Virus record (IMG/VR): IMGVR_UViG_2541047750_000003
Coordinates: 1-52,473 of that record
Strand: one strand, 5' to 3'
Length of the DNA stretch: 52,473 nt
From: a virus
Lineage: Duplodnaviria; Heunggongvirae; Uroviricota; Caudoviricetes
In this document: in pieces, positions 10,295 to 25,573 of the stretch
Layout: every line of letters starts with the position of its first letter
Position numbering within the stretch: position 1 is the first letter of the stretch
Position numbers and translations under genes: made by a program
Notes under the pieces: model-generated
What the model was told of the DNA's origin: nothing
The model's input: only the letters and a program-made list of their open reading frames with translations
The model's database searches: none

Positions 10295-10713
10295 TGAGTT
10301 TGAATTCAATTACGCTGGGCGGGAATATCGGAAACGACATGGAAGTTCGCTACACGCAAAACGGTAAAGCGATTGGTAGTTTTCCGTTAGCTGTAACGAA
10401 TGGCTACGGTGATAACAAGCGGACAATGTGGATCACTTGCCTGGTATTTGGTGAGCGTGCGGAAAAATTAGCGCCACATATCCGCAAGGGTGGAAAAATA
10501 GTGGTAAGCGGTCGCCTGGATGTTCGGCAATATGACCGGAACGACGGCACGAAGGGGACTGCGGTAGAAGTGGCGGTTAATGAATTTGAATTCATGAATG
10601 TTAACCAACAAGGCCAGCAGCAAGGACAGCAGCAGAAAGCGCCGCCGCAGCAGCAGAATAATAACGGGAATAATCCGCCTCCGATGGACTTCGACGACGA
10701 TATTCCTTTTTAG
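10294..10713 (+). CDS. ssb: single-stranded DNA-binding protein
   Basis: 139 aa; OB-fold N-terminus, Gln/Pro-rich linker, acidic tail MDFDDDIPF. Confidence 0.9.
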   Translation: MSLNSITLGGNIGNDMEVRYTQNGKAIGSFPLAVTNGYGDNKRTMWITCLVFGERAEKLAPHIRKGGKIVVSGRLDVRQYDRNDGTKGTAVEVAVNEFEFMNVNQQGQQQGQQQKAPPQQQNNNGNNPPPMDFDDDIPF

Positions 10714-16527: not shown

Positions 16528-16648
16528 TAATGGCGCTTTGCACCTTGTTAGCACGTATCCATTTTGTATACTTCAAGCAAACAAAATGCTCTTTAAAAAT
16601 CCGGCAGCGCTGAAATGCGTAGAAATCACCTGAAAAGGAGAGAGCATT

Positions 16649-16839: not shown

Positions 16840-17445
16840 ATGCAAAACCCTAAAAAACCCATAAGACGCCGTTGCAAGTGCTGCGGCGTTTTTTTTGAGC
16901 CTAAATATCATAATCAAACGTGGTGCAGCGATGAATGTCTGGAAGAACTGAAGTTTGACCAGCTATGCCGCGACCGTGAAAAGGCTATGAAGGCTATGGA
17001 ACGGAAGAAACGCCGCGATAGCCAGCGGGAAGAACGCAACCGGAAGCGGAAACAGTTAAATCCGCGCAGCTACTGGATCAAGCAAGTTCAAAACGTATTC
17101 AACGCCTATATCCGCGAACGTGACGCGCGCTTGCCGTGTATATCCTGCGGGACTTACTACGGTGAGCAATGCGGGTGGGATGCGGGCCATTACAGGACGG
17201 TTGCCGCCGCAGGACACCTTCGCTTTAACGAGGATAATTGCCATAAACAATGCAGGCACTGCAACCAGACATTAGACGGAAACATAGGAGGGTATCGCCC
17301 GGCGCTAATTCGAAAAATTGGCCTCGCCATGGTGGTAGCTCTGGAGAACAACAACGATACGCATAAATGGACGATTGCAGAATGTAAGGAGCTAATAAAC
17401 ATCTATCAGGCGAAATTGGACGCCTTAAGGAGAAAGGTAGCATGA
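16840..17445 (+). CDS. ninG: NinG/Rap-like recombination protein
   Basis: Start refined from track ORF 16750; RRCKCCGVFF...WCSDEC and CISCG...GHYRTVAAAGHLRFNEDNCHKQCRHCN match the NinG Cys/His pattern. Confidence 0.7.
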   Translation: MQNPKKPIRRRCKCCGVFFEPKYHNQTWCSDECLEELKFDQLCRDREKAMKAMERKKRRDSQREERNRKRKQLNPRSYWIKQVQNVFNAYIRERDARLPCISCGTYYGEQCGWDAGHYRTVAAAGHLRFNEDNCHKQCRHCNQTLDGNIGGYRPALIRKIGLAMVVALENNNDTHKWTIAECKELINIYQAKLDALRRKVA

Positions 17446-18338
17446 ATAATTGGCATGATATATTTGAATACGACAACGGTTTTTTATATTGGAAGGGAAA
17501 GAAAGGAAAGTGTAACGCTGGTGATTTGGCTGGTTGCATCCATAAAAATAGTGGTTATTGGGTTGTTCGTGTTAACGATAAATTACATAAAGTACATAGA
17601 ATTATATGGGAAATGCATAACGGACCAATTCCGAAAGGATGCGAGATAGATCATATTTGGCACAACAGAAATGATAACAGGATAGAAAATTTACGCCTTG
17701 TTACTCATAAGCAAAACGGAAGAAATCAGGCAAAACCAAAAAATAATAAAAGTGGGCAGCCTGGGGTTCATAAACTTTCTAACGGATACTATAGAGCGGA
17801 AATATGTGTTAATGGTAAAAATGTGTATCTTGGTCAGTTTGATAATTTTGAAGATGCAGTGGATGTCAGAAAAAAAGGAGAAAAAAAATATTGTTTCCAT
17901 GAAAACAATGGTGTAAGCAAGGAGATTTTGATGCGTGAATTTGAATTCACGTTACCCTGGGCACCATCGGTTAATTCTTATTACGGCAACAATAAAAGGG
18001 GTAGTAAGTATGTAACAAACAAAGGCAAGGATTTCCAAAAAAAAGTCAAAGAAATAATAGAATCACTAAAACTTGATCTTAATATTGATTTTAATGTTTC
18101 CGTTTATATATATGTAGCGCCACCTACACTACGCCCACACGATATTGATAATTGCTTAAAAGCAATATTCGATAGTCTTACTTACGCTCATTTTTGGGTT
18201 GATGATAGGCAGGTTTTTAGTCTTAAGGTTGTAAAGTGCCATAAAATAAAAAACGGCCAGATATTCGTAAAAGTGAAAGAACATTCAGGGGTGTTACCTG
18301 ATATTAACGAATATATTCAGAATTATTGGGAGGTGTGA
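17442..18338 (+). CDS. HNH endonuclease (with AP2-like segment) fused in frame to RusA-like Holliday junction resolvase
   Basis: N-terminal half: HNH motif EIDHIWHNRNDNRIENLRLVTHKQN plus GVHKLSNGYYRAEICVNGKNVYLGQFDNFEDA; C-terminal half: RusA-like LPWAPSVNSYYG...HDIDNCLKAIFDSL...WVDDRQV; markedly AT-rich N-terminal half. Confidence 0.6.
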   Translation: MNNWHDIFEYDNGFLYWKGKKGKCNAGDLAGCIHKNSGYWVVRVNDKLHKVHRIIWEMHNGPIPKGCEIDHIWHNRNDNRIENLRLVTHKQNGRNQAKPKNNKSGQPGVHKLSNGYYRAEICVNGKNVYLGQFDNFEDAVDVRKKGEKKYCFHENNGVSKEILMREFEFTLPWAPSVNSYYGNNKRGSKYVTNKGKDFQKKVKEIIESLKLDLNIDFNVSVYIYVAPPTLRPHDIDNCLKAIFDSLTYAHFWVDDRQVFSLKVVKCHKIKNGQIFVKVKEHSGVLPDINEYIQNYWEV

Positions 18339-18340
18339 CA

Positions 18341-18526
18341 ATGAAAAATGAAGTTAAAGATCTGCAAATAGATATTCAGCGCGATGAGCATGATTTAGCT
18401 ACAGTCCGACAAATCCAGGCTTTTCATATGCGCGAATTGCTTGCATTGAAAGAGCTTGAGAAAAAGTTAGTCCAGTCTATTTCTGATCGTAAACAACTTA
18501 TTGCTCGTTACGGGGGGGGGGAATAA
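18341..18526 (+). CDS. hypothetical protein (61 aa)
   Basis: Start refined to ATG after GGGAGGTG RBS. Confidence 0.4.
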   Translation: MKNEVKDLQIDIQRDEHDLATVRQIQAFHMRELLALKELEKKLVQSISDRKQLIARYGGGE

Positions 18527-19248
18527 TGAATTTAGAATCCATTCTGAAATTCCACTTTCCCAAATCACCGCGATTATCAGACGAAAGCCGGGGCACATCC
18601 CCGGATGCGCTTAATACGACTGATGCGCTAACCGCTGCGGGTATGGCGCAATCGCGCGTAGAGCTTGGCTATAGTGCTTTTTTAGGGAAGATGGAGCTAT
18701 CGCAAGCCGAAAAACACAGGGCTGTAGTATTGCTTACAGAGCGTTTAAGAGCTATGGCGAAAGATTACGAATATGTGATGGAATTAAATGAAGAACAACG
18801 CAATGATCTTATTATTCTTGTTGCCGTTTTCGCGTTTCGGGATTATTGCCAAAGCGCCGCGACGGAAAAAACTTGTATGGAGTGCGGCGGATATAAATTT
18901 ACGTTTGACGACTACGGAGAAAAACATCTTTGCAAAAAATGCAAGGGGCATGGAAAGGTTCGCAATCATTGTAAACAATGCAAGGGGCGTGGCGAGATAC
19001 CGGATAAAACAGCCAGCGAAGCGGCGGAAATGCCAGTATTCAAAACGTGCCAGCACTGCGGCGGGCGAGGCTACTCGCGTTTCCCTGTAGATCTTGTCCG
19101 GCAGGCGGTTAATCAGCTTGTTTTTCCGGTAAGCCGATCAACATGGTGGAAGAAATACAGGGTTTTCTATGAAGACGCCATTGCTGAATTGTTCAAAGAA
19201 GAGGCGAGGGCTGATAACGAAATTAAACGAGTTACACGGGGTGAATAA
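18526..19248 (+). CDS. zinc-finger protein with four CxxCxGxG repeats (240 aa)
   Basis: CMECGGYK, CKKCKGHG, CKQCKGRG, CQHCGGRG resemble a DnaJ-type Cys-rich domain. Confidence 0.5.
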   Translation: MNLESILKFHFPKSPRLSDESRGTSPDALNTTDALTAAGMAQSRVELGYSAFLGKMELSQAEKHRAVVLLTERLRAMAKDYEYVMELNEEQRNDLIILVAVFAFRDYCQSAATEKTCMECGGYKFTFDDYGEKHLCKKCKGHGKVRNHCKQCKGRGEIPDKTASEAAEMPVFKTCQHCGGRGYSRFPVDLVRQAVNQLVFPVSRSTWWKKYRVFYEDAIAELFKEEARADNEIKRVTRGE

Positions 19249-21024: not shown

Positions 21025-21258
21025 ATGCGTATTTATGAACACAAGCGGGATAAAACCCGCTTTTTTGTTCGTGCTGGCGTTGCATACCAGTATCACGAAT
21101 GCGGATACATTGAGGCGCTTGCTTACGATCTGGATTTCGAGCAGGAAAAAGAATGGTTCGATTTCAAAATATACCGCAAGCGTAAACCAACGCGCTACGA
21201 GCGCCACGCTATCCGGGACTTTTTAATCAGCATTGAGCGCTGGGGGACAGAAGAATGA
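21025..21258 (+). CDS. hypothetical protein (77 aa)
   Basis: ORF in operon. Confidence 0.4.
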   Translation: MRIYEHKRDKTRFFVRAGVAYQYHECGYIEALAYDLDFEQEKEWFDFKIYRKRKPTRYERHAIRDFLISIERWGTEE

Positions 21259-23187: not shown

Positions 23188-23374
23188 ATGCCTTATTGCT
23201 GTGATTGTTTTGCTTTATATCGCTGGCGCGATCCTGATGTCATGTTTTATTAAGTATAGCGGCGCTGAACCTGGTGGCCTTGAGATTCCTTTATGGCCTG
23301 TAGTGATGTTTCTCGCTTTCTTTGATGCTACGGTAGTGCAGATCAAGCGAGCTATTAAGGAGCGCAAGAAATGA
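23180..23374 (+). CDS. small membrane protein (64 aa)
   Basis: Start refined to MIECLIAVIVLLYIAGAILM; two hydrophobic helices. Confidence 0.4.
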   Translation: MIECLIAVIVLLYIAGAILMSCFIKYSGAEPGGLEIPLWPVVMFLAFFDATVVQIKRAIKERKK

Positions 23375-23553
23375 TTGAAGACGGTATCTATGGTGTAAAC
23401 CTGATGGAGAACGTTTTTTACATGGTGGACGGCGATACTGTAACAATCAGCTTCGATGGTGGGGAATATGCAGAGCCATTCTTCAAAACAACAAGGGAAG
23501 ACATTAAGCACGGCGTTGATAACGGCGTACTGTTTAAGGTTGGCGAGTTATGA
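23371..23553 (+). CDS. hypothetical protein (60 aa)
   Basis: ATGA coupling; N-terminus MIEDGIYG paralogous to the next ORF. Confidence 0.4.
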   Translation: MIEDGIYGVNLMENVFYMVDGDTVTISFDGGEYAEPFFKTTREDIKHGVDNGVLFKVGEL

Positions 23554-23726
23554 ACGAGATCGAAGACGGTATCTATTTGCACATGTTATTTAATATCGCC
23601 TATTTGGTTAAAGGTGATAAGGTGATGACACAAAGCGCTGGCAATAAATATTGGGAATCAAGCGGAATGGATCGGTGGCATATGCAGATGTTGCTTGATA
23701 ATGGCCTGATATACAGGAAGCAGTAA
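23550..23726 (+). CDS. hypothetical protein (58 aa)
   Basis: MNEIEDGIYLHMLF...; stop TAA begins the first copy of an 18-nt direct repeat. Confidence 0.35.
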   Translation: MNEIEDGIYLHMLFNIAYLVKGDKVMTQSAGNKYWESSGMDRWHMQMLLDNGLIYRKQ

Positions 23727-23991
23727 AGCCGTATTTGTGGGGGGCAGTATGGAAGAAATGATTTTGCTGTCATTAATATGGCATCGGTTCGGGAGTGAAA
23801 AAGGTTACTCGCCTGCTTGCTGGCTGGATAGTAAAAGTGGGAAGGGGTATCAAAACGAATGCGAATTTAGAAGGGAGTGGCGAGGCGGTAAGGAAGTGCA
23901 AGGATATTTTGCACCGAAACACGTCGCCGCCAAATACAAAGAATGGCTTGTTCGTTTGCTTGGCCCTTATCGTTAAAGCCGTATTTGTGGG
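23724..23991. repeat. 18-nt direct repeat TAAAGCCGTATTTGTGGG (two copies, 23724-23741 and 23974-23991)
   Basis: Exact identity read from sequence; each copy starts with the stop codon of a small ORF. Confidence 0.8.
23749..23976 (+). CDS. hypothetical protein (75 aa)
   Basis: Start refined to MEEMILLS; flanked by the two copies of the 18-nt repeat. Confidence 0.4.
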   Translation: MEEMILLSLIWHRFGSEKGYSPACWLDSKSGKGYQNECEFRREWRGGKEVQGYFAPKHVAAKYKEWLVRLLGPYR

Positions 23992-24013
23992 TCGAAAACA
24001 AACAGATTAAAAT
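23985..24013 (+). promoter_or_regulatory. candidate late promoter (pR-prime-like)
   Basis: TTGTGG, 17-nt spacer, TAAAAT, about 30 nt upstream of a terminator hairpin and 70 nt upstream of the holin ATG. Confidence 0.3.
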
Positions 24014-24040
24014 ATTACCTAACAATGCGAAACTGTAACT

Positions 24041-24070
24041 ACCCGGCCCCGTGCCGGGTTTTTGCTTTGT
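24041..24070 (+). terminator. intrinsic terminator-like hairpin just upstream of the lysis cassette (tR-prime-like)
   Basis: acccggc-cccgt-gccgggt followed by TTTTTGCTTTGTT, directly before the holin RBS GGAGG. Confidence 0.5.
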
Positions 24071-24083
24071 TGGAGGTAAATCT

Positions 24084-24284
24084 ATGTTCGACAGAATACG
24101 GGAGGCATGTGCGTATGTGACTGGGGCCGTAACTGCTTTTTTCGGCGCGATAACCATCAATGATATTGCCGTCTTTGTGGGTATCTTATCAACCGTAGGC
24201 ACATTTGCCGTTAATTATTACTTCAAATCACAGGAGAACAAGCGAGCGCAAGAGGAACACGACGCGCGAATGGGGAATAAGTAA
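24084..24284 (+). CDS. class II holin / pinholin (phage 21 S-like)
   Basis: 66 aa from the ATG after the GGAGG RBS; two TM helices, charged C-terminal tail; immediately precedes the SAR endolysin. Confidence 0.65.
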
Positions 24285-24285
24285 C

Positions 24286-24777
24286 ATGATTAGCCAATCG
24301 CTGAAAAATAAGATTATTGCGGCGGCGGCTGGTGGGGCGATCGCTATTGCGGGGATGATGATAAAAGATCTTGAAGGCGTTGAGTATAAGCCGTACAGAG
24401 ATGTCATCGGTGTTTACACGATATGTTATGGACACGTCGGAAAAGACATCATGCTTGGTAAGACTTACACGCAATCAGAATGCGATGCTTTGTTAAATAA
24501 AGATCTACACAAGACCGCAAAAGCGATTAACCCATATATCAAAGTCGAAATATCAGATTTTACCCGCGCTGCACTTTATTCCTTCGCCTATAACGTAGGC
24601 GCTACCAACTTCAAAACATCAACCTTACTAAAACTACTCAATGACGGCAAGAAATCAGAAGCGTGCGCACAGCTTAAGCGCTGGGTATACGCTGGCGGTA
24701 AGAAGTGGCAAGGCCTGGTAAACCGCCGTGATGTTGAATATGCCGTTTGCGAATGGGGGGAAACGTGGACAAGGTGA
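24286..24777 (+). CDS. SAR endolysin (GH24 lysozyme)
   Basis: N-terminal signal-anchor-release-like segment [20 protein letters not shown], then lysozyme signature [21 protein letters not shown]. Confidence 0.8.
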
Positions 24778-25235
24778 AGGCGTTAATTATCGCCGCTGTT
24801 GTTTGCATTATTGCCGGACTAACCGCCGTAACGTGTTATTACCAGGGTGAGGCGACAAGGTTACAGGAAGAAGTCACGGTGACGAAAGGCGCACTGAAGA
24901 CAGCAAGTAACACTATTCAGCAGATGAAGGAGCGAAACGCCGAACTGTCAAAACTTGATAAGAGGTATCACGATGAGATTAAAGCTATCAGATCTGACAT
25001 TGCCGATCTGCGCACTGGCATTGATAACGGTACTATCCGGTTGCGCGTCAACGCCGTGCCAATGCGAACAGACAGTAATACCGGAACCTCCAGCCGCATT
25101 GATGGAGCCACCTGCGAACCTACTGCCGACGCTAAATCGGCTTATCTATCCCTCAGAGAACAACTAAAAATAAAAGACGCACAGATCACTGGCCTACAGG
25201 ACTACATCAAAACTCAGTGTTTACGCAAAGAATAG
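24747..25235 (+). CDS. i-spanin (Rz-like)
   Basis: N-terminal TM helix, coiled-coil periplasmic region, overlaps the endolysin 3-prime end. Confidence 0.65.
24973..25167 (+). CDS. o-spanin (Rz1-like lipoprotein) embedded in the Rz gene
   Basis: +1 frame inside Rz; [24 protein letters not shown] lipobox, Pro-rich mature part. Confidence 0.6.
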   Translation: MRLKLSDLTLPICALALITVLSGCASTPCQCEQTVIPEPPAALMEPPANLLPTLNRLIYPSENN

Positions 25236-25573
25236 CAGCGCGTTGACGTGTCGCCGTTTCTGTCAGCCAGCCATAACCGGGCCAATCCTTCCCGCGAGCG
25301 ACGGCGGAATAGTCAAAAACACGTAATACCGGGTAAACAACCTCATTAACAGGTACGGCGCTACCTGGGTAGAAGAAAGCGCCATTTACTCACCTGCCAC
25401 GCGTAGGACGAGCGCCCGGATCTGTTTATCAGAGATGTTAAGCAGGTCCAGTTTTATAAAATTCTGCAAACGGTACTCACTAAGCGCCGTTTTCAGTGTT
25501 TTATATCTGTTTTCACTCCCTGCGGTGTCCAGTTTTGCGGGGGTTATATTTTTCAGGATAGAGGAATATTCTG

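What the first reader, a model, noticed from the sequence alone, without database searches (positions are those of the whole stretch)
23724..24070. Late-promoter-like region with 18-nt direct repeats and a terminator abutting the holin RBS
Seen in sequence: TAAAGCCGTATTTGTGGG occurs twice (23724-23741, 23974-23991), each copy beginning with the stop codon of a small ORF; the second copy overlaps a TTGTGG-N17-TAAAAT promoter-like sequence, followed ~30 nt later by hairpin acccggc/gccgggt plus T-tract and then the holin SD. This resembles a lambda pR-prime/tR-prime arrangement that would need an antiterminator. The repeats may mark a recombinational insertion of the 75-aa gene.
Basis: partly seen in the sequence, partly recalled or inferred. 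Interest (0 to 1): 0.5.

Follow-up and report, generated by a model that had tools for sequence, protein, structure and literature searches.

The report
Late promoter and terminator before holin
The 108-base gap in front of this temperate coliphage's lysis genes looks like a lambda-style late-gene switch (promoter, pause signal and terminator that the phage's Q protein would override), and the 18-base repeat marks a 250-base gene cassette inserted just upstream; it is a well-known kind of control element not yet described for this phage group.

Summary
TAAAGCCGTATTTGTGGG occurs exactly twice (23724-41, 23974-91). Each copy starts with a stop codon, and a strong hairpin plus T-tract (24041-24064) abuts the holin ribosome-binding site.

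The window is an mEp021-group (mEpimmI) coliphage with a lambda-family Q gene (PF03589) 4.76 kb upstream. The gap before the holin matches the lambda/P22 PR'-qut-tR' layout:
- a -10 element, TAAAAT;
- 7 nt later a -10-like pause element, AACAAT, at the predicted +1..+6;
- T+14 and Y+16;
- a terminator starting at +21;
- then the lysis, terminase and structural genes.

Five independent Q-lambda cassettes share this geometry. So does a distant relative of this phage group (Q 49% identical) whose sequence there is otherwise different.

Among 46 relatives the -10 block and the pause block never vary, while the hairpin loop and half of the holin third-codon positions do. The -35-like TTGTGG inside the repeat is weak and is absent from many relatives.

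The repeat flanks an exact 250-bp indel carrying a 75-aa ORFan gene, present in about a quarter of relatives.

No transcript data exist here, so promoter function remains inferred. Unusual points are the 3-6.7 kb between Q and its presumed site, and the weak or missing -35.

The parts
18526..19248 (+). Q-lambda-family antiterminator gene (240 aa). It has a 31-aa insertion carrying two extra CxxC pairs in the zinc-ribbon arm.
   Evidence: Pfam PF03589, E 1.6e-29. 34% identity to lambda Q over its full length. phrog_127 'anti-termination protein Q-like'. Homologue of mEp021 gp37 'putative late gene regulator Q'.
23550..23726 (+). 58-aa gene (phrog_15318, function unknown). Its TAA stop is the first 3 nt of repeat copy 1. 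It is a tandem paralogue of the 60-aa gene at 23371-23553.
   Evidence: In relatives without the cassette this gene directly abuts the promoter module.
23724..23741 (.). 18-nt direct repeat, copy 1 (TAAAGCCGTATTTGTGGG).
23742..23991 (.). 250-bp indel relative to mEp554, mEp044 and mEp021. It contains the 75-aa gene plus repeat copy 2. The indel could equally be drawn as 23724-23973.
   Evidence: Alignment A1. The two-copy state is present in 10 of 43 IMG/VR relatives.
23749..23976 (+). 75-aa gene (phrog_23715), an ORFan restricted to this phage group.
   Evidence: Only two clusters in 5.8 billion proteins. No tblastn hit in 50,697 phage records. Variable sites by codon position are 2/5/15, consistent with a real coding gene.
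23974..23991 (.). 18-nt direct repeat, copy 2. Homology to mEp021, mEp010, mEp013 and mEp515 begins exactly here.
23985..23990 (+). Weak -35-like hexamer TTGTGG (3/6), 17 nt upstream of the -10. Not conserved in the group.
23996..24007 (+). Conserved spacer block AAACAAACAGAT. It is invariant except at 24003/24004, with one rare variant at 24002. Candidate Q-binding element (inferred).
   Evidence: Variation profile of 46 sequences. The mosaic breakpoint of variant-B relatives lies at 23995. AAACAA is also present in the L114 and L117 spacers.
24008..24013 (+). -10 element TAAAAT (5/6; T-12, A-11 and T-7 present).
   Evidence: Invariant in 46 relatives, within the 10-nt invariant block GATTAAAATA. 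The distant relative L114 has TATAAT at this position.
24021..24026 (+). Predicted transcription start (A24021) and sigma70-dependent pause element AACAAT at +1..+6.
   Evidence: Same geometry as lambda AACGAT, P22 AACGAT, ES18 AACAGT, Citrobacter AATGAT, L053 AATAAT and L114 AATAAT. Lies in a 14-nt invariant block.
24034..24037 (+). TGTA at +14..+17, the predicted pause position (T+14, Y+16; A instead of G at +17, as in P22 TGCA).
   Evidence: Consensus T+14 N Y+16 G+17 from PMC9191641. T24034 and T24036 are invariant in 29 haplotypes.
24041..24064 (+). Intrinsic terminator: 7-bp stem ACCCGGC/GCCGGGT, 5-nt loop, then TTTTT. It begins at predicted +21. Equals mEp021 TERM_5.
   Evidence: The six GC pairs of the stem never vary and the closing A-U pair becomes G-U in one haplotype, while the loop takes at least 8 forms. 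L114 has a different hairpin at the same place.
24072..24076 (+). Holin Shine-Dalgarno sequence GGAGG, 8 nt after the T-tract.
   Evidence: Annotated RBS in mEp021.
24084..24284 (+). Class II holin (66 aa), the first gene of the presumed late operon.
   Evidence: PF16080, E 1.6e-14.
24286..25235 (+). Endolysin (24286-24777) and Rz spanin (24747-25235), with an embedded Rz1-like lipoprotein ORF (24955-25167).
   Evidence: PF00959 and PF03245. ORF list.

Best explanation
The gap 23977-24083 is the late-operon control cassette of an mEp021-group phage, built on the lambda/P22 plan. On this reading it works as follows.

1. Host sigma70 RNA polymerase starts at about A24021 from a promoter whose essential element is the -10 TAAAAT. 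The -35 is weak.
2. Sigma region 2 re-binds the -10-like AACAAT at +1..+6 and holds the complex at about +16.
3. Without Q, polymerase then terminates at the hairpin plus T-tract, giving a roughly 44-46-nt RNA.
4. Once the early operon has made the Q-lambda-family protein encoded 4.76 kb upstream, Q binds the conserved AAACAAA..GAT block between -35 and -10 and loads onto the paused complex.
5. The Q-loaded complex reads through this terminator and later ones into holin, endolysin, spanin, terminase and the structural genes.

The 18-nt direct repeat is not a regulatory element. It is the duplicated gene-boundary sequence left when a 250-bp cassette carrying a 75-aa ORFan gene was recombined in between the 58-aa gene and the promoter module.

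Shown: the sequence elements, their geometry, their conservation, the indel, the Q family assignment and the stability of the terminator fold. Inferred: initiation at this site, the pause, Q binding and Q-dependent read-through.
For: Q family: the Q gene belongs to PF03589 and has a lambda-like N-terminal region.

Position: this is the only intergenic gap longer than about 25 nt between Q and the lysis genes, and the ORF after Q overlaps the Q stop codon.

Shared geometry: -10, then 6-7 nt, then AAYRRT, then T+14/Y+16, then a nearby terminator. This matches lambda, P22 with its annotated Plate/qut/t-late, ES18, a Citrobacter prophage and L053. Definitions of the cassette and of the pause consensus come from PMC9388147 and PMC9191641.

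Chance: the [-10]-N6-7-AAYRRT pattern is expected about 0.003 times in a 108-nt stretch.

Purifying selection: in 46 relatives GATTAAAATA and CTAACAATGCGAAA are invariant, while 35 of 67 holin third-codon positions and the hairpin loop vary.

Independent re-occurrence: contigs whose Q is 49% identical have TATAAT-6-AATAAT-GGC, an unrelated terminator hairpin, an SD and a holin in the same place, with the same synteny.

Distribution: the core motif is single-copy, always just 5' of the holin, and found only in this group among 2.9 million viral contigs.

Terminator: the hairpin equals the GenBank TERM_5 of mEp021. The group's 2025 paper lists t5 among experimentally demonstrated terminators.

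Indel: an exact 250-bp difference from three sequenced relatives. In every carrier the cassette follows the 58-aa gene plus boundary sequence.
Against: There are no transcription-start, pause or termination data for this site in anything I could read.

The -35 is only 3/6, there is no extended -10, and the hexamer pair alone is one of 25 equally good matches in the 4.8 kb upstream. Variant-B relatives, L117 and L114 have no recognisable -35 at all, unlike the five classical cassettes. A -10-only promoter may be weak.

Q is not adjacent to the site (3.0-6.7 kb away in relatives), whereas the textbook cassette has them adjacent.

No similarity to the lambda Q-binding element could be shown.

AACAATGCGAAA can also pair with the U-tract and UUGUU flank of the terminator, which could by itself explain its conservation within the close group.

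The N-like Gp17 system of this group could read through the same terminator from upstream.
Confidence: 0.68

Rival explanations
1. The site is only an operon-end terminator with no promoter. On this reading the hairpin (t5) closes the delayed-early operon, and the lysis and late genes are reached by polymerase from the early promoter. That polymerase has been made termination-resistant by the N-like Gp17/Nus complex loaded at nutR2. The conserved bases upstream of the hairpin would serve RNA-level roles, such as an A-tract pairing with the U-tract or control of holin translation.
For: mEp021-group phages have a proven N-like antiterminator with three nut sites. Transcripts downstream of terminators appear only with Gp17 (PMC11893012). 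A boxA/boxB-like nutR2 is visible at 16585-16640. GCGAAA/UUUUGC and AACAA/UUGUU pairings extend the terminator helix in the MFE fold. The -35 is weak or absent.
Against: It does not explain why a Q-lambda-family gene is conserved in every member. Gp17 dependence is equally expected if Gp17 is merely needed to express Q.

It does not explain a -10 element followed at the canonical distance by a -10-like element and T+14/Y+16.

It does not explain why L114 keeps TATAAT-6-AATAAT while its hairpin and flanks are different.

No helix showed covariation.
Confidence: 0.2
2. The 18-nt repeats are functional protein-binding sites, for example operators or looping sites for a late regulator, rather than a recombination scar.
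For: There are two exact copies plus a 15/18 third copy in the holin gene, spaced 250 and 190 nt apart. This is statistically unexpected.
Against: Most relatives have a single copy. Variant-B relatives have none upstream of the holin, yet they keep the rest of the module. The second copy exists only where the 75-aa cassette is present. In other carriers the two copies differ from each other by up to 3 nt.
Confidence: 0.03
3. The 250-bp segment is a small mobile element and the 18-nt repeat is its target-site duplication.
For: An exact direct repeat flanks a presence/absence polymorphism.
Against: The segment has no terminal inverted repeats and no transposase, integrase or homing-endonuclease domain. 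The ORF has no Pfam match. The cassette occurs at this one locus only and nowhere outside the group. Both flanking genes use the TAA inside the repeat as their stop codon, which fits exchange at a shared gene-boundary sequence.
Confidence: 0.05

Closest known systems
Phage lambda PR'-qut-tR' late cassette with Q (Pfam PF03589)
   Same: Both have the same Q protein family (34% identity, conserved N-terminal region). Both have a 17-nt spacer, a near-consensus -10 (TAAATT in lambda, TAAAAT here) and a -10-like pause element at +1..+6 (AACGAT in lambda, AACAAT here). Both have T+14/Y+16, an intrinsic terminator before the late genes, and lysis genes first in the operon.
   Different: Lambda's PR' lies directly after Q, whereas here it is 4.76 kb away, beyond about 20 small ORFs. 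Lambda has a strong -35 (TTGACT) and a -35-like TTGACT next to the pause element; both are missing here. Lambda's tR' is at about +194, whereas here the hairpin starts at +21 and touches the holin SD. The Q here has a 31-aa zinc-ribbon insertion.
Salmonella phage P22 Plate / gene 23 / t-late (annotated in BK000583)
   Same: Both have a short leader. In P22 the terminator hairpin starts at about +28 and gives a roughly 60-nt RNA. P22 has TGCA at +14..+17, compared with TGTA here.
   Different: In P22 the site is adjacent to gene 23, the -35 is strong, and about 300 nt separate the terminator from the holin gene.
ES18 and Citrobacter-prophage Q cassettes (Q subfamily of about 253 aa)
   Same: These are the nearest Q relatives outside the group (35-40% identity). 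Their layouts are TAATAT-7-AACAGT and TAATCT-6-AATGAT-GGA, each followed by a terminator. The 7-nt interval in ES18 matches the window.
   Different: They are placed directly after Q and have a TTTACA -35. Their spacer sequences are unrelated.
mEp021 N-like Gp17 / nutL-nutR1-nutR2 early antitermination (PMC11893012; Valencia-Toxqui 2023, not readable here)
   Same: It is the same phage group. The hairpin studied here is mEp021 TERM_5, probably the paper's t5.
   Different: That system acts through RNA boxA/boxB sites. The region here has no GCTCTT boxA and no A-rich boxB loop. The paper's main text does not mention qut and never uses the phrases 'late promoter', 'late gene' or 'Q-like'.
Mosaic gene-boundary exchange in temperate phages (modular evolution; recalled from the lambdoid literature)
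   Same: Different upstream genes all end at the same junction sequence. A gene cassette is present or absent exactly at that junction.
   Different: Here the junction sequence itself was duplicated (18 nt), giving a clean direct repeat.

Membership tests
Q-lambda-type Q-dependent late regulatory cassette | Antiterminator of the Q-lambda family (PF03589) encoded by the phage | tested here: met
   PF03589, E 1.6e-29, 102 bits against a cutoff of 26.7. BLASTP against lambda Q gives E 9e-47.
Q-lambda-type Q-dependent late regulatory cassette | Promoter unit lies immediately downstream of the Q gene | tested here: not met
   The Q stop is at 19248 and the next ORF overlaps it. The -10 is at 24008, so the distance is 4.76 kb. 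In 43 relatives the distance is 3.0-6.7 kb.
Q-lambda-type Q-dependent late regulatory cassette | Sigma70 promoter (-35 and -10 elements) | tested here: inconclusive
   The -10 TAAAAT is 5/6 and invariant. The -35 TTGTGG is 3/6 and is absent in variant B, L117 and L114. The hexamer score is not above background.
Q-lambda-type Q-dependent late regulatory cassette | Sigma-dependent pause element (-10-like) at about +1..+6, with T+14 N Y+16 G+17 downstream | tested here: met
   AACAAT lies 7 nt after the -10. TGTA is at +14..+17 (G+17 is replaced by A, as in P22). All are invariant. The chance of the pattern in this gap is about 0.003.
Q-lambda-type Q-dependent late regulatory cassette | Q-binding element between -35 and -10 | not testable with these tools
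   The specificity of this Q is unknown. A conserved AAACAAA..GAT block, variable mainly at its 8th and 9th positions, is a candidate only.
Q-lambda-type Q-dependent late regulatory cassette | Intrinsic terminator between the promoter and the late genes | tested here: met
   Annotated as TERM_5 in mEp021. L114 has a different hairpin at the same place.
Q-lambda-type Q-dependent late regulatory cassette | Late genes (lysis, packaging, structural) downstream on the same strand | tested here: met
   Holin, lysozyme and Rz. Terminase and portal follow in mEp021 and L114.
Q-lambda-type Q-dependent late regulatory cassette | Q-dependent read-through of the terminator | not testable with these tools
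   This needs in vitro transcription or reporter assays.
N/nut-type antitermination site | boxA (GCTCTT...) followed by a boxB hairpin with an A-rich loop | tested here: not met
   There is no GCTCTT. The only hairpin has a C/G-rich variable loop and a T-tract. A genuine nutR2-like site is at 16585-16640.
Transposable element with target-site duplication | Terminal inverted repeats and a transposase or integrase; copies at several loci | tested here: not met

The most novel reading that the evidence does not exclude
In the mEp021 group the Q switch has been rebuilt in two ways. The Q gene and its utilisation site are uncoupled by a 3-7 kb hypervariable array of small accessory genes. The late promoter has also lost its -35, so that initiation or loading depends on this Q subfamily's enlarged zinc-ribbon arm, making Q both activator and antiterminator. 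In many members, read-through RNA from the early operon additionally hides the holin ribosome-binding site, so that only PR'-initiated transcripts trigger lysis.
Probability: 0.1. Interest if true: 0.6.

Novelty: new member of a known kind. Interest (0 to 1): 0.35.

Why it matters
mEpimmI phages are reported to be as common in human gut samples as lambdoid phages. Their N-like early antitermination has been studied, but the main text of the paper I could read names no late promoter or Q-utilisation site.

Pinning that site to a 90-nt module gives exact coordinates for mutagenesis and reporter work in mEp021:
- -10 at 24262-24267;
- predicted +1 at 24275;
- terminator at 24295-24313.

It also shows that a Q-lambda-type switch can work, or at least be maintained, with its Q gene kilobases away and with little or no -35.

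Finally, it identifies the stretch between Q and the switch as a cassette-exchange zone. The 250-bp insertion with its 18-nt duplicated junction is a clean example.

Tried and rejected
1. Anti-SD idea. The whole-gap RNA fold pairs UUACCU (just upstream of the predicted +1) with the holin SD. L114 does this much more strongly. However, the central pair is broken in 18 of 29 haplotypes and covariation is no better than shuffles. Partition-function tests are inconsistent: in the window the SD is 0.39 unpaired in read-through RNA against 0.20 in PR'-start RNA, while ten other haplotypes (including L114 and L117) show strong sequestration. Not supported for this window.

2. Co-variation of Q subtype (240 or 242 aa) with the upstream variant (A or B): none, with counts 15/5 against 17/6.

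3. A promoter directly after Q: there is no intergenic space.

4. Other hits of the -10/pause pattern. Those at 10657, 17233 and 32479 lie inside coding regions. The one at 25457 is in the next gap but has only a weak hairpin.

5. A nut-like reading of CTAACAAT, which resembles the end of rrn boxA. It lacks GCTCTT, so I rejected it.

6. Rfam: only a sub-threshold hit, rnk_pseudo at 23.4 bits against a cutoff of 55.

7. Origin of the 75-aa gene: no homologue outside the group.

8. More distant holin relatives (L049-L064) belong to other phage types and were uninformative, except that L053 gave one more classical Q cassette.

9. The 2023 Archives of Virology paper on Gp17 could not be read. The equation of the paper's t5 with GenBank TERM_5 therefore rests on matching order and number only.

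Full report
**What is in the sequence**

The 18-mer TAAAGCCGTATTTGTGGG is present exactly at 23724-23741 and 23974-23991 (expected 0.02 matches, 0/100 shuffles). Copy 1 starts with the TAA stop of a 58-aa ORF (23550-23726). Copy 2 starts with the TAA stop of a 75-aa ORF (23749-23976).

Copy 2 contains TTGTGG (23985-90). Seventeen nt later comes TAAAAT (24008-13). A 7-bp, 6-GC hairpin (24041-24059) with TTTTT follows. It is the best terminator-like site in 20-28 kb and folds at -16.9 kcal/mol, z -3.2. The holin SD GGAGG (24072-76) and ATG (24084) come directly after.

**Context**

The window is a member of the mEp021 (mEpimmI) group of temperate coliphages. Over 23300-24400 it is 90-96% identical to mEp554, mEp044, mEp013, mEp010, mEp021 and mEp515. 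This group is described as Nus-dependent and non-lambdoid, with an N-like antiterminator Gp17 and 'Q-lambda-like' proteins (PMC11893012).

The genes after the gap are a class II holin (PF16080), a lysozyme (PF00959) and an Rz spanin (PF03245).

At 18526-19248 lies a 240-aa protein of the Q-lambda family (PF03589, E 1.6e-29; 34% identical to lambda Q, with a well-conserved N-terminal 60 residues and a 31-aa CxxC-rich insertion in the zinc-ribbon arm). The ORF after Q overlaps its stop codon. From there to the holin the small ORFs are packed end to end. The 108-nt gap under study is the only sizeable intergenic space.

In mEp021 the homologous hairpin is annotated TERM_5 (24296-24312; window coordinate + 254). 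It is the fifth of five terminators in the early-to-lysis region. The 2025 paper states that t1, t2 and t5 were experimentally demonstrated. I could not read the 2023 paper to confirm that t5 is this hairpin. The main text of the 2025 paper does not mention qut and never uses the phrases 'late promoter', 'late gene' or 'Q-like'.

**The promoter question**

As a bare hexamer match the site is unremarkable. It scores 8/12 and is one of 25 such sites on the + strand between Q and the holin. The consensus scan did not list it.

What distinguishes it is the architecture. The Q-dependent cassette is defined as Q gene, PR' promoter, Q-binding element, sigma-dependent pause element (SDPE), terminator and late genes (PMC9388147). 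The scrunched paused complex prefers T+14 N Y+16 G+17 (PMC9191641).

Read from the sequences, the cassettes compare as follows.

| Source | -35 | -10 | Interval | Pause element | +14..+17 |
|---|---|---|---|---|---|
| lambda | TTGACT | TAAATT | 6 nt | AACGAT | TTCG |
| P22 (annotated Plate, qut, +1, t-late) | TTGACT | TAAATT | 6 nt | AACGAT | TGCA |
| ES18 (Q 35% identical to the window's) | TTTACA | TAATAT | 7 nt | AACAGT | not matched |
| Citrobacter prophage (Q 40%) | TTTACA | TAATCT | 6 nt | AATGAT | TGCA |
| Contig L053 (Q 37%) | TTGACA | TAAATT | about 6 nt | AATAAT | TCTG |
| Window | TTGTGG | TAAAAT | 7 nt | AACAAT | TGTA |

In P22 the terminator hairpin starts at about +28. In the window the hairpin starts at +21.

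A [-10 of at least 5/6]-N6-7-AAYRRT pattern is expected about 3 times in the whole window on both strands. That is about 0.003 times in a 108-nt stretch on one strand. The other four hits in the window are inside genes or lack a convincing terminator.

**Conservation**

In 43 IMG/VR relatives taken by holin position, not by motif, every genome has the module immediately 5' of the holin. With the window, mEp021 and mEp554 added this makes 46 sequences.

- The 10 nt GATTAAAATA and the 14 nt CTAACAATGCGAAA never vary.
- T+14 and T+16 never vary.
- The six GC pairs of the stem never vary, and the closing A-U pair becomes G-U in one haplotype.
- The 5-nt loop takes at least 8 forms.
- The three bases between the -10 and CT vary.
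- 35 of 67 holin third-codon positions vary.

At a per-site variable fraction of about 0.52, runs of 14 and 10 invariant columns would be about 3e-5 and 6e-4. This is rough arithmetic that ignores shared ancestry.

The core motif is single-copy per genome. It lies 3.0-6.7 kb downstream of the Q stop and occurs in no other of 2.9 million viral contigs (46 contigs, all of this group).

The strongest evidence comes from Logan contigs of a more distant relative (Q 49% identical) with the same ERF-SSB-...-NinG-RusA-Q-small ORFs-holin-lysozyme-Rz-terminase synteny. These have a 111-nt gap reading AAGCGC-17-TATAAT-6-AATAAT-GGC...AAGGCUGGAA/UUCCGGCCUU-U7-GGGAGG-ATG. The plan is the same, the sequence is different, and the terminator hairpin is unrelated. 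A 76%-Q relative (L117) has TAAAAT-6-AACAAT and TGTA at +14.

**What does not fit the textbook**

1. Q and the site are not adjacent.
2. The -35 is weak in the window and is replaced by TCGCGC (variant B, about a quarter of genomes), GCGCGT (L117) or AAGCGC (L114). All five classical cassettes have 5-6/6.

The homology breakpoints in E. coli prophages fall at 23974 (start of repeat copy 2) or at 23995. The conserved module therefore begins at AAACAAA, downstream of the -35.

The conserved spacer block (AAACAAA, two variable bases, GAT) is compatible with a bipartite 13-bp Q site such as the one lambda Q uses. That is inference only.

A rival reading is a terminator-only site read through by the N-like system. 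It cannot be excluded without transcript mapping. It leaves unexplained the conserved Q gene, the SDPE geometry and its re-occurrence in L114. I give it about 0.2.

**The repeat**

Alignment with mEp554, mEp044 and mEp021 shows an exact 250-bp insertion in the window, bounded by the 18-mer. Those phages have one copy, with the 58-aa gene abutting the module (A1).

Ten of 43 IMG/VR relatives and 10 of 27 E. coli prophages carry the cassette. In all carriers it follows the 58-aa gene plus boundary sequence. In several carriers the two boundary copies differ by up to 3 nt, so the event is old and has spread.

The 75-aa product is phrog_23715, of unknown function. It has no homologue outside the group and shows third-position-biased variation (2/5/15), so it is likely a real gene.

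Different upstream genes in different relatives all stop at the same junction position. This fits cassette exchange at a shared gene boundary. There are no inverted termini, no recombinase and no other insertion sites, which argues against a transposon.

**Verdict**

This is a real feature and very probably the PR'/qut/tR' module of the mEpimmI late operon (confidence about 0.68). The terminator itself is close to certain. The 18-nt repeat is an insertion scar.

It is a new member of a known kind. Its two modestly unusual traits are the kilobase separation of Q from the site and the weak or absent -35. Interest 0.35.

Noticed in passing
window 24164-24181: There is a third, 15/18 copy of the 18-mer (TATTGCCGTCTTTGTGGG) inside the holin coding sequence, 190 nt after copy 2. 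It is present in most relatives as CATTGCCGTCTTTGTGGG. With up to 3 mismatches only 0.02 matches are expected. No indel is associated with it.
   Followed up: partly
window 16585-16640: A nut-like site sits downstream of the cytosine methyltransferase gene. It has a boxA-like TGCTCTTTAAAAAT followed by a boxB-like CACCTGAAAAGGAG. This presumably corresponds to nutR2 of the mEp021 papers.
   Followed up: partly
window 21043-21062: A strong terminator-like hairpin, AAGCGGG-ATAAAA-CCCGCTT followed by TTTTGTT, lies on the + strand. It starts 18 nt inside the ORF 21025-21258, in the middle of the Q-to-holin gene array. mEp554 and mEp044 carry ARNold-predicted terminators in the same general stretch between Q and the holin; I did not check whether they are homologous.
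   Followed up: no
window 25236-25573: A 338-nt gap separates Rz from the 194-aa ORF that precedes the terminase. It holds a second TAAAAT-N6-AACGGT pattern at 25457 and a weak AACGG/CCGTT hairpin with a T-run. The hairpin is probably mEp021 TERM_6. The function of the gap is unknown.
   Followed up: partly
window 23371-23726: The two small genes just upstream (60 aa and 58 aa) are tandem paralogues. They are 35% identical, both belong to phrog_15318, and they share a 19-nt near-identical 5' stretch GATyGAAGACGGTATCTAT.
   Followed up: yes
window 17442-18338: A single 298-aa ORF fuses an HNH_3 endonuclease domain (residues 50-94) to a RusA Holliday-junction resolvase domain (173-278). In mEp021 the resolvase gene is only 408 nt.
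   Followed up: partly
window 18526-19248: This Q protein has a 31-residue insertion with two additional CxxC pairs (DnaJ-type CxxCxGxG) in the zinc-ribbon arm relative to lambda Q. The group splits into 240-aa and 242-aa subtypes, the 242-aa subtype being 84-89% identical to the window's 240-aa Q.
   Followed up: partly
L114 12736-12849 (Logan SRR23253395 contig): In this distant relative the RNA of the whole pre-holin gap folds at -38.3 kcal/mol (z -4.4). A 5' arm that overlaps the -10 pairs with the holin SD and start codon. Only transcripts reading in from upstream would contain that arm.
   Followed up: partly
window 24955-25167: An Rz1-like ORF with a lipoprotein signal (..LSGC..) is embedded in the +1 frame of the Rz gene. 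This is the usual embedded spanin arrangement.
   Followed up: no
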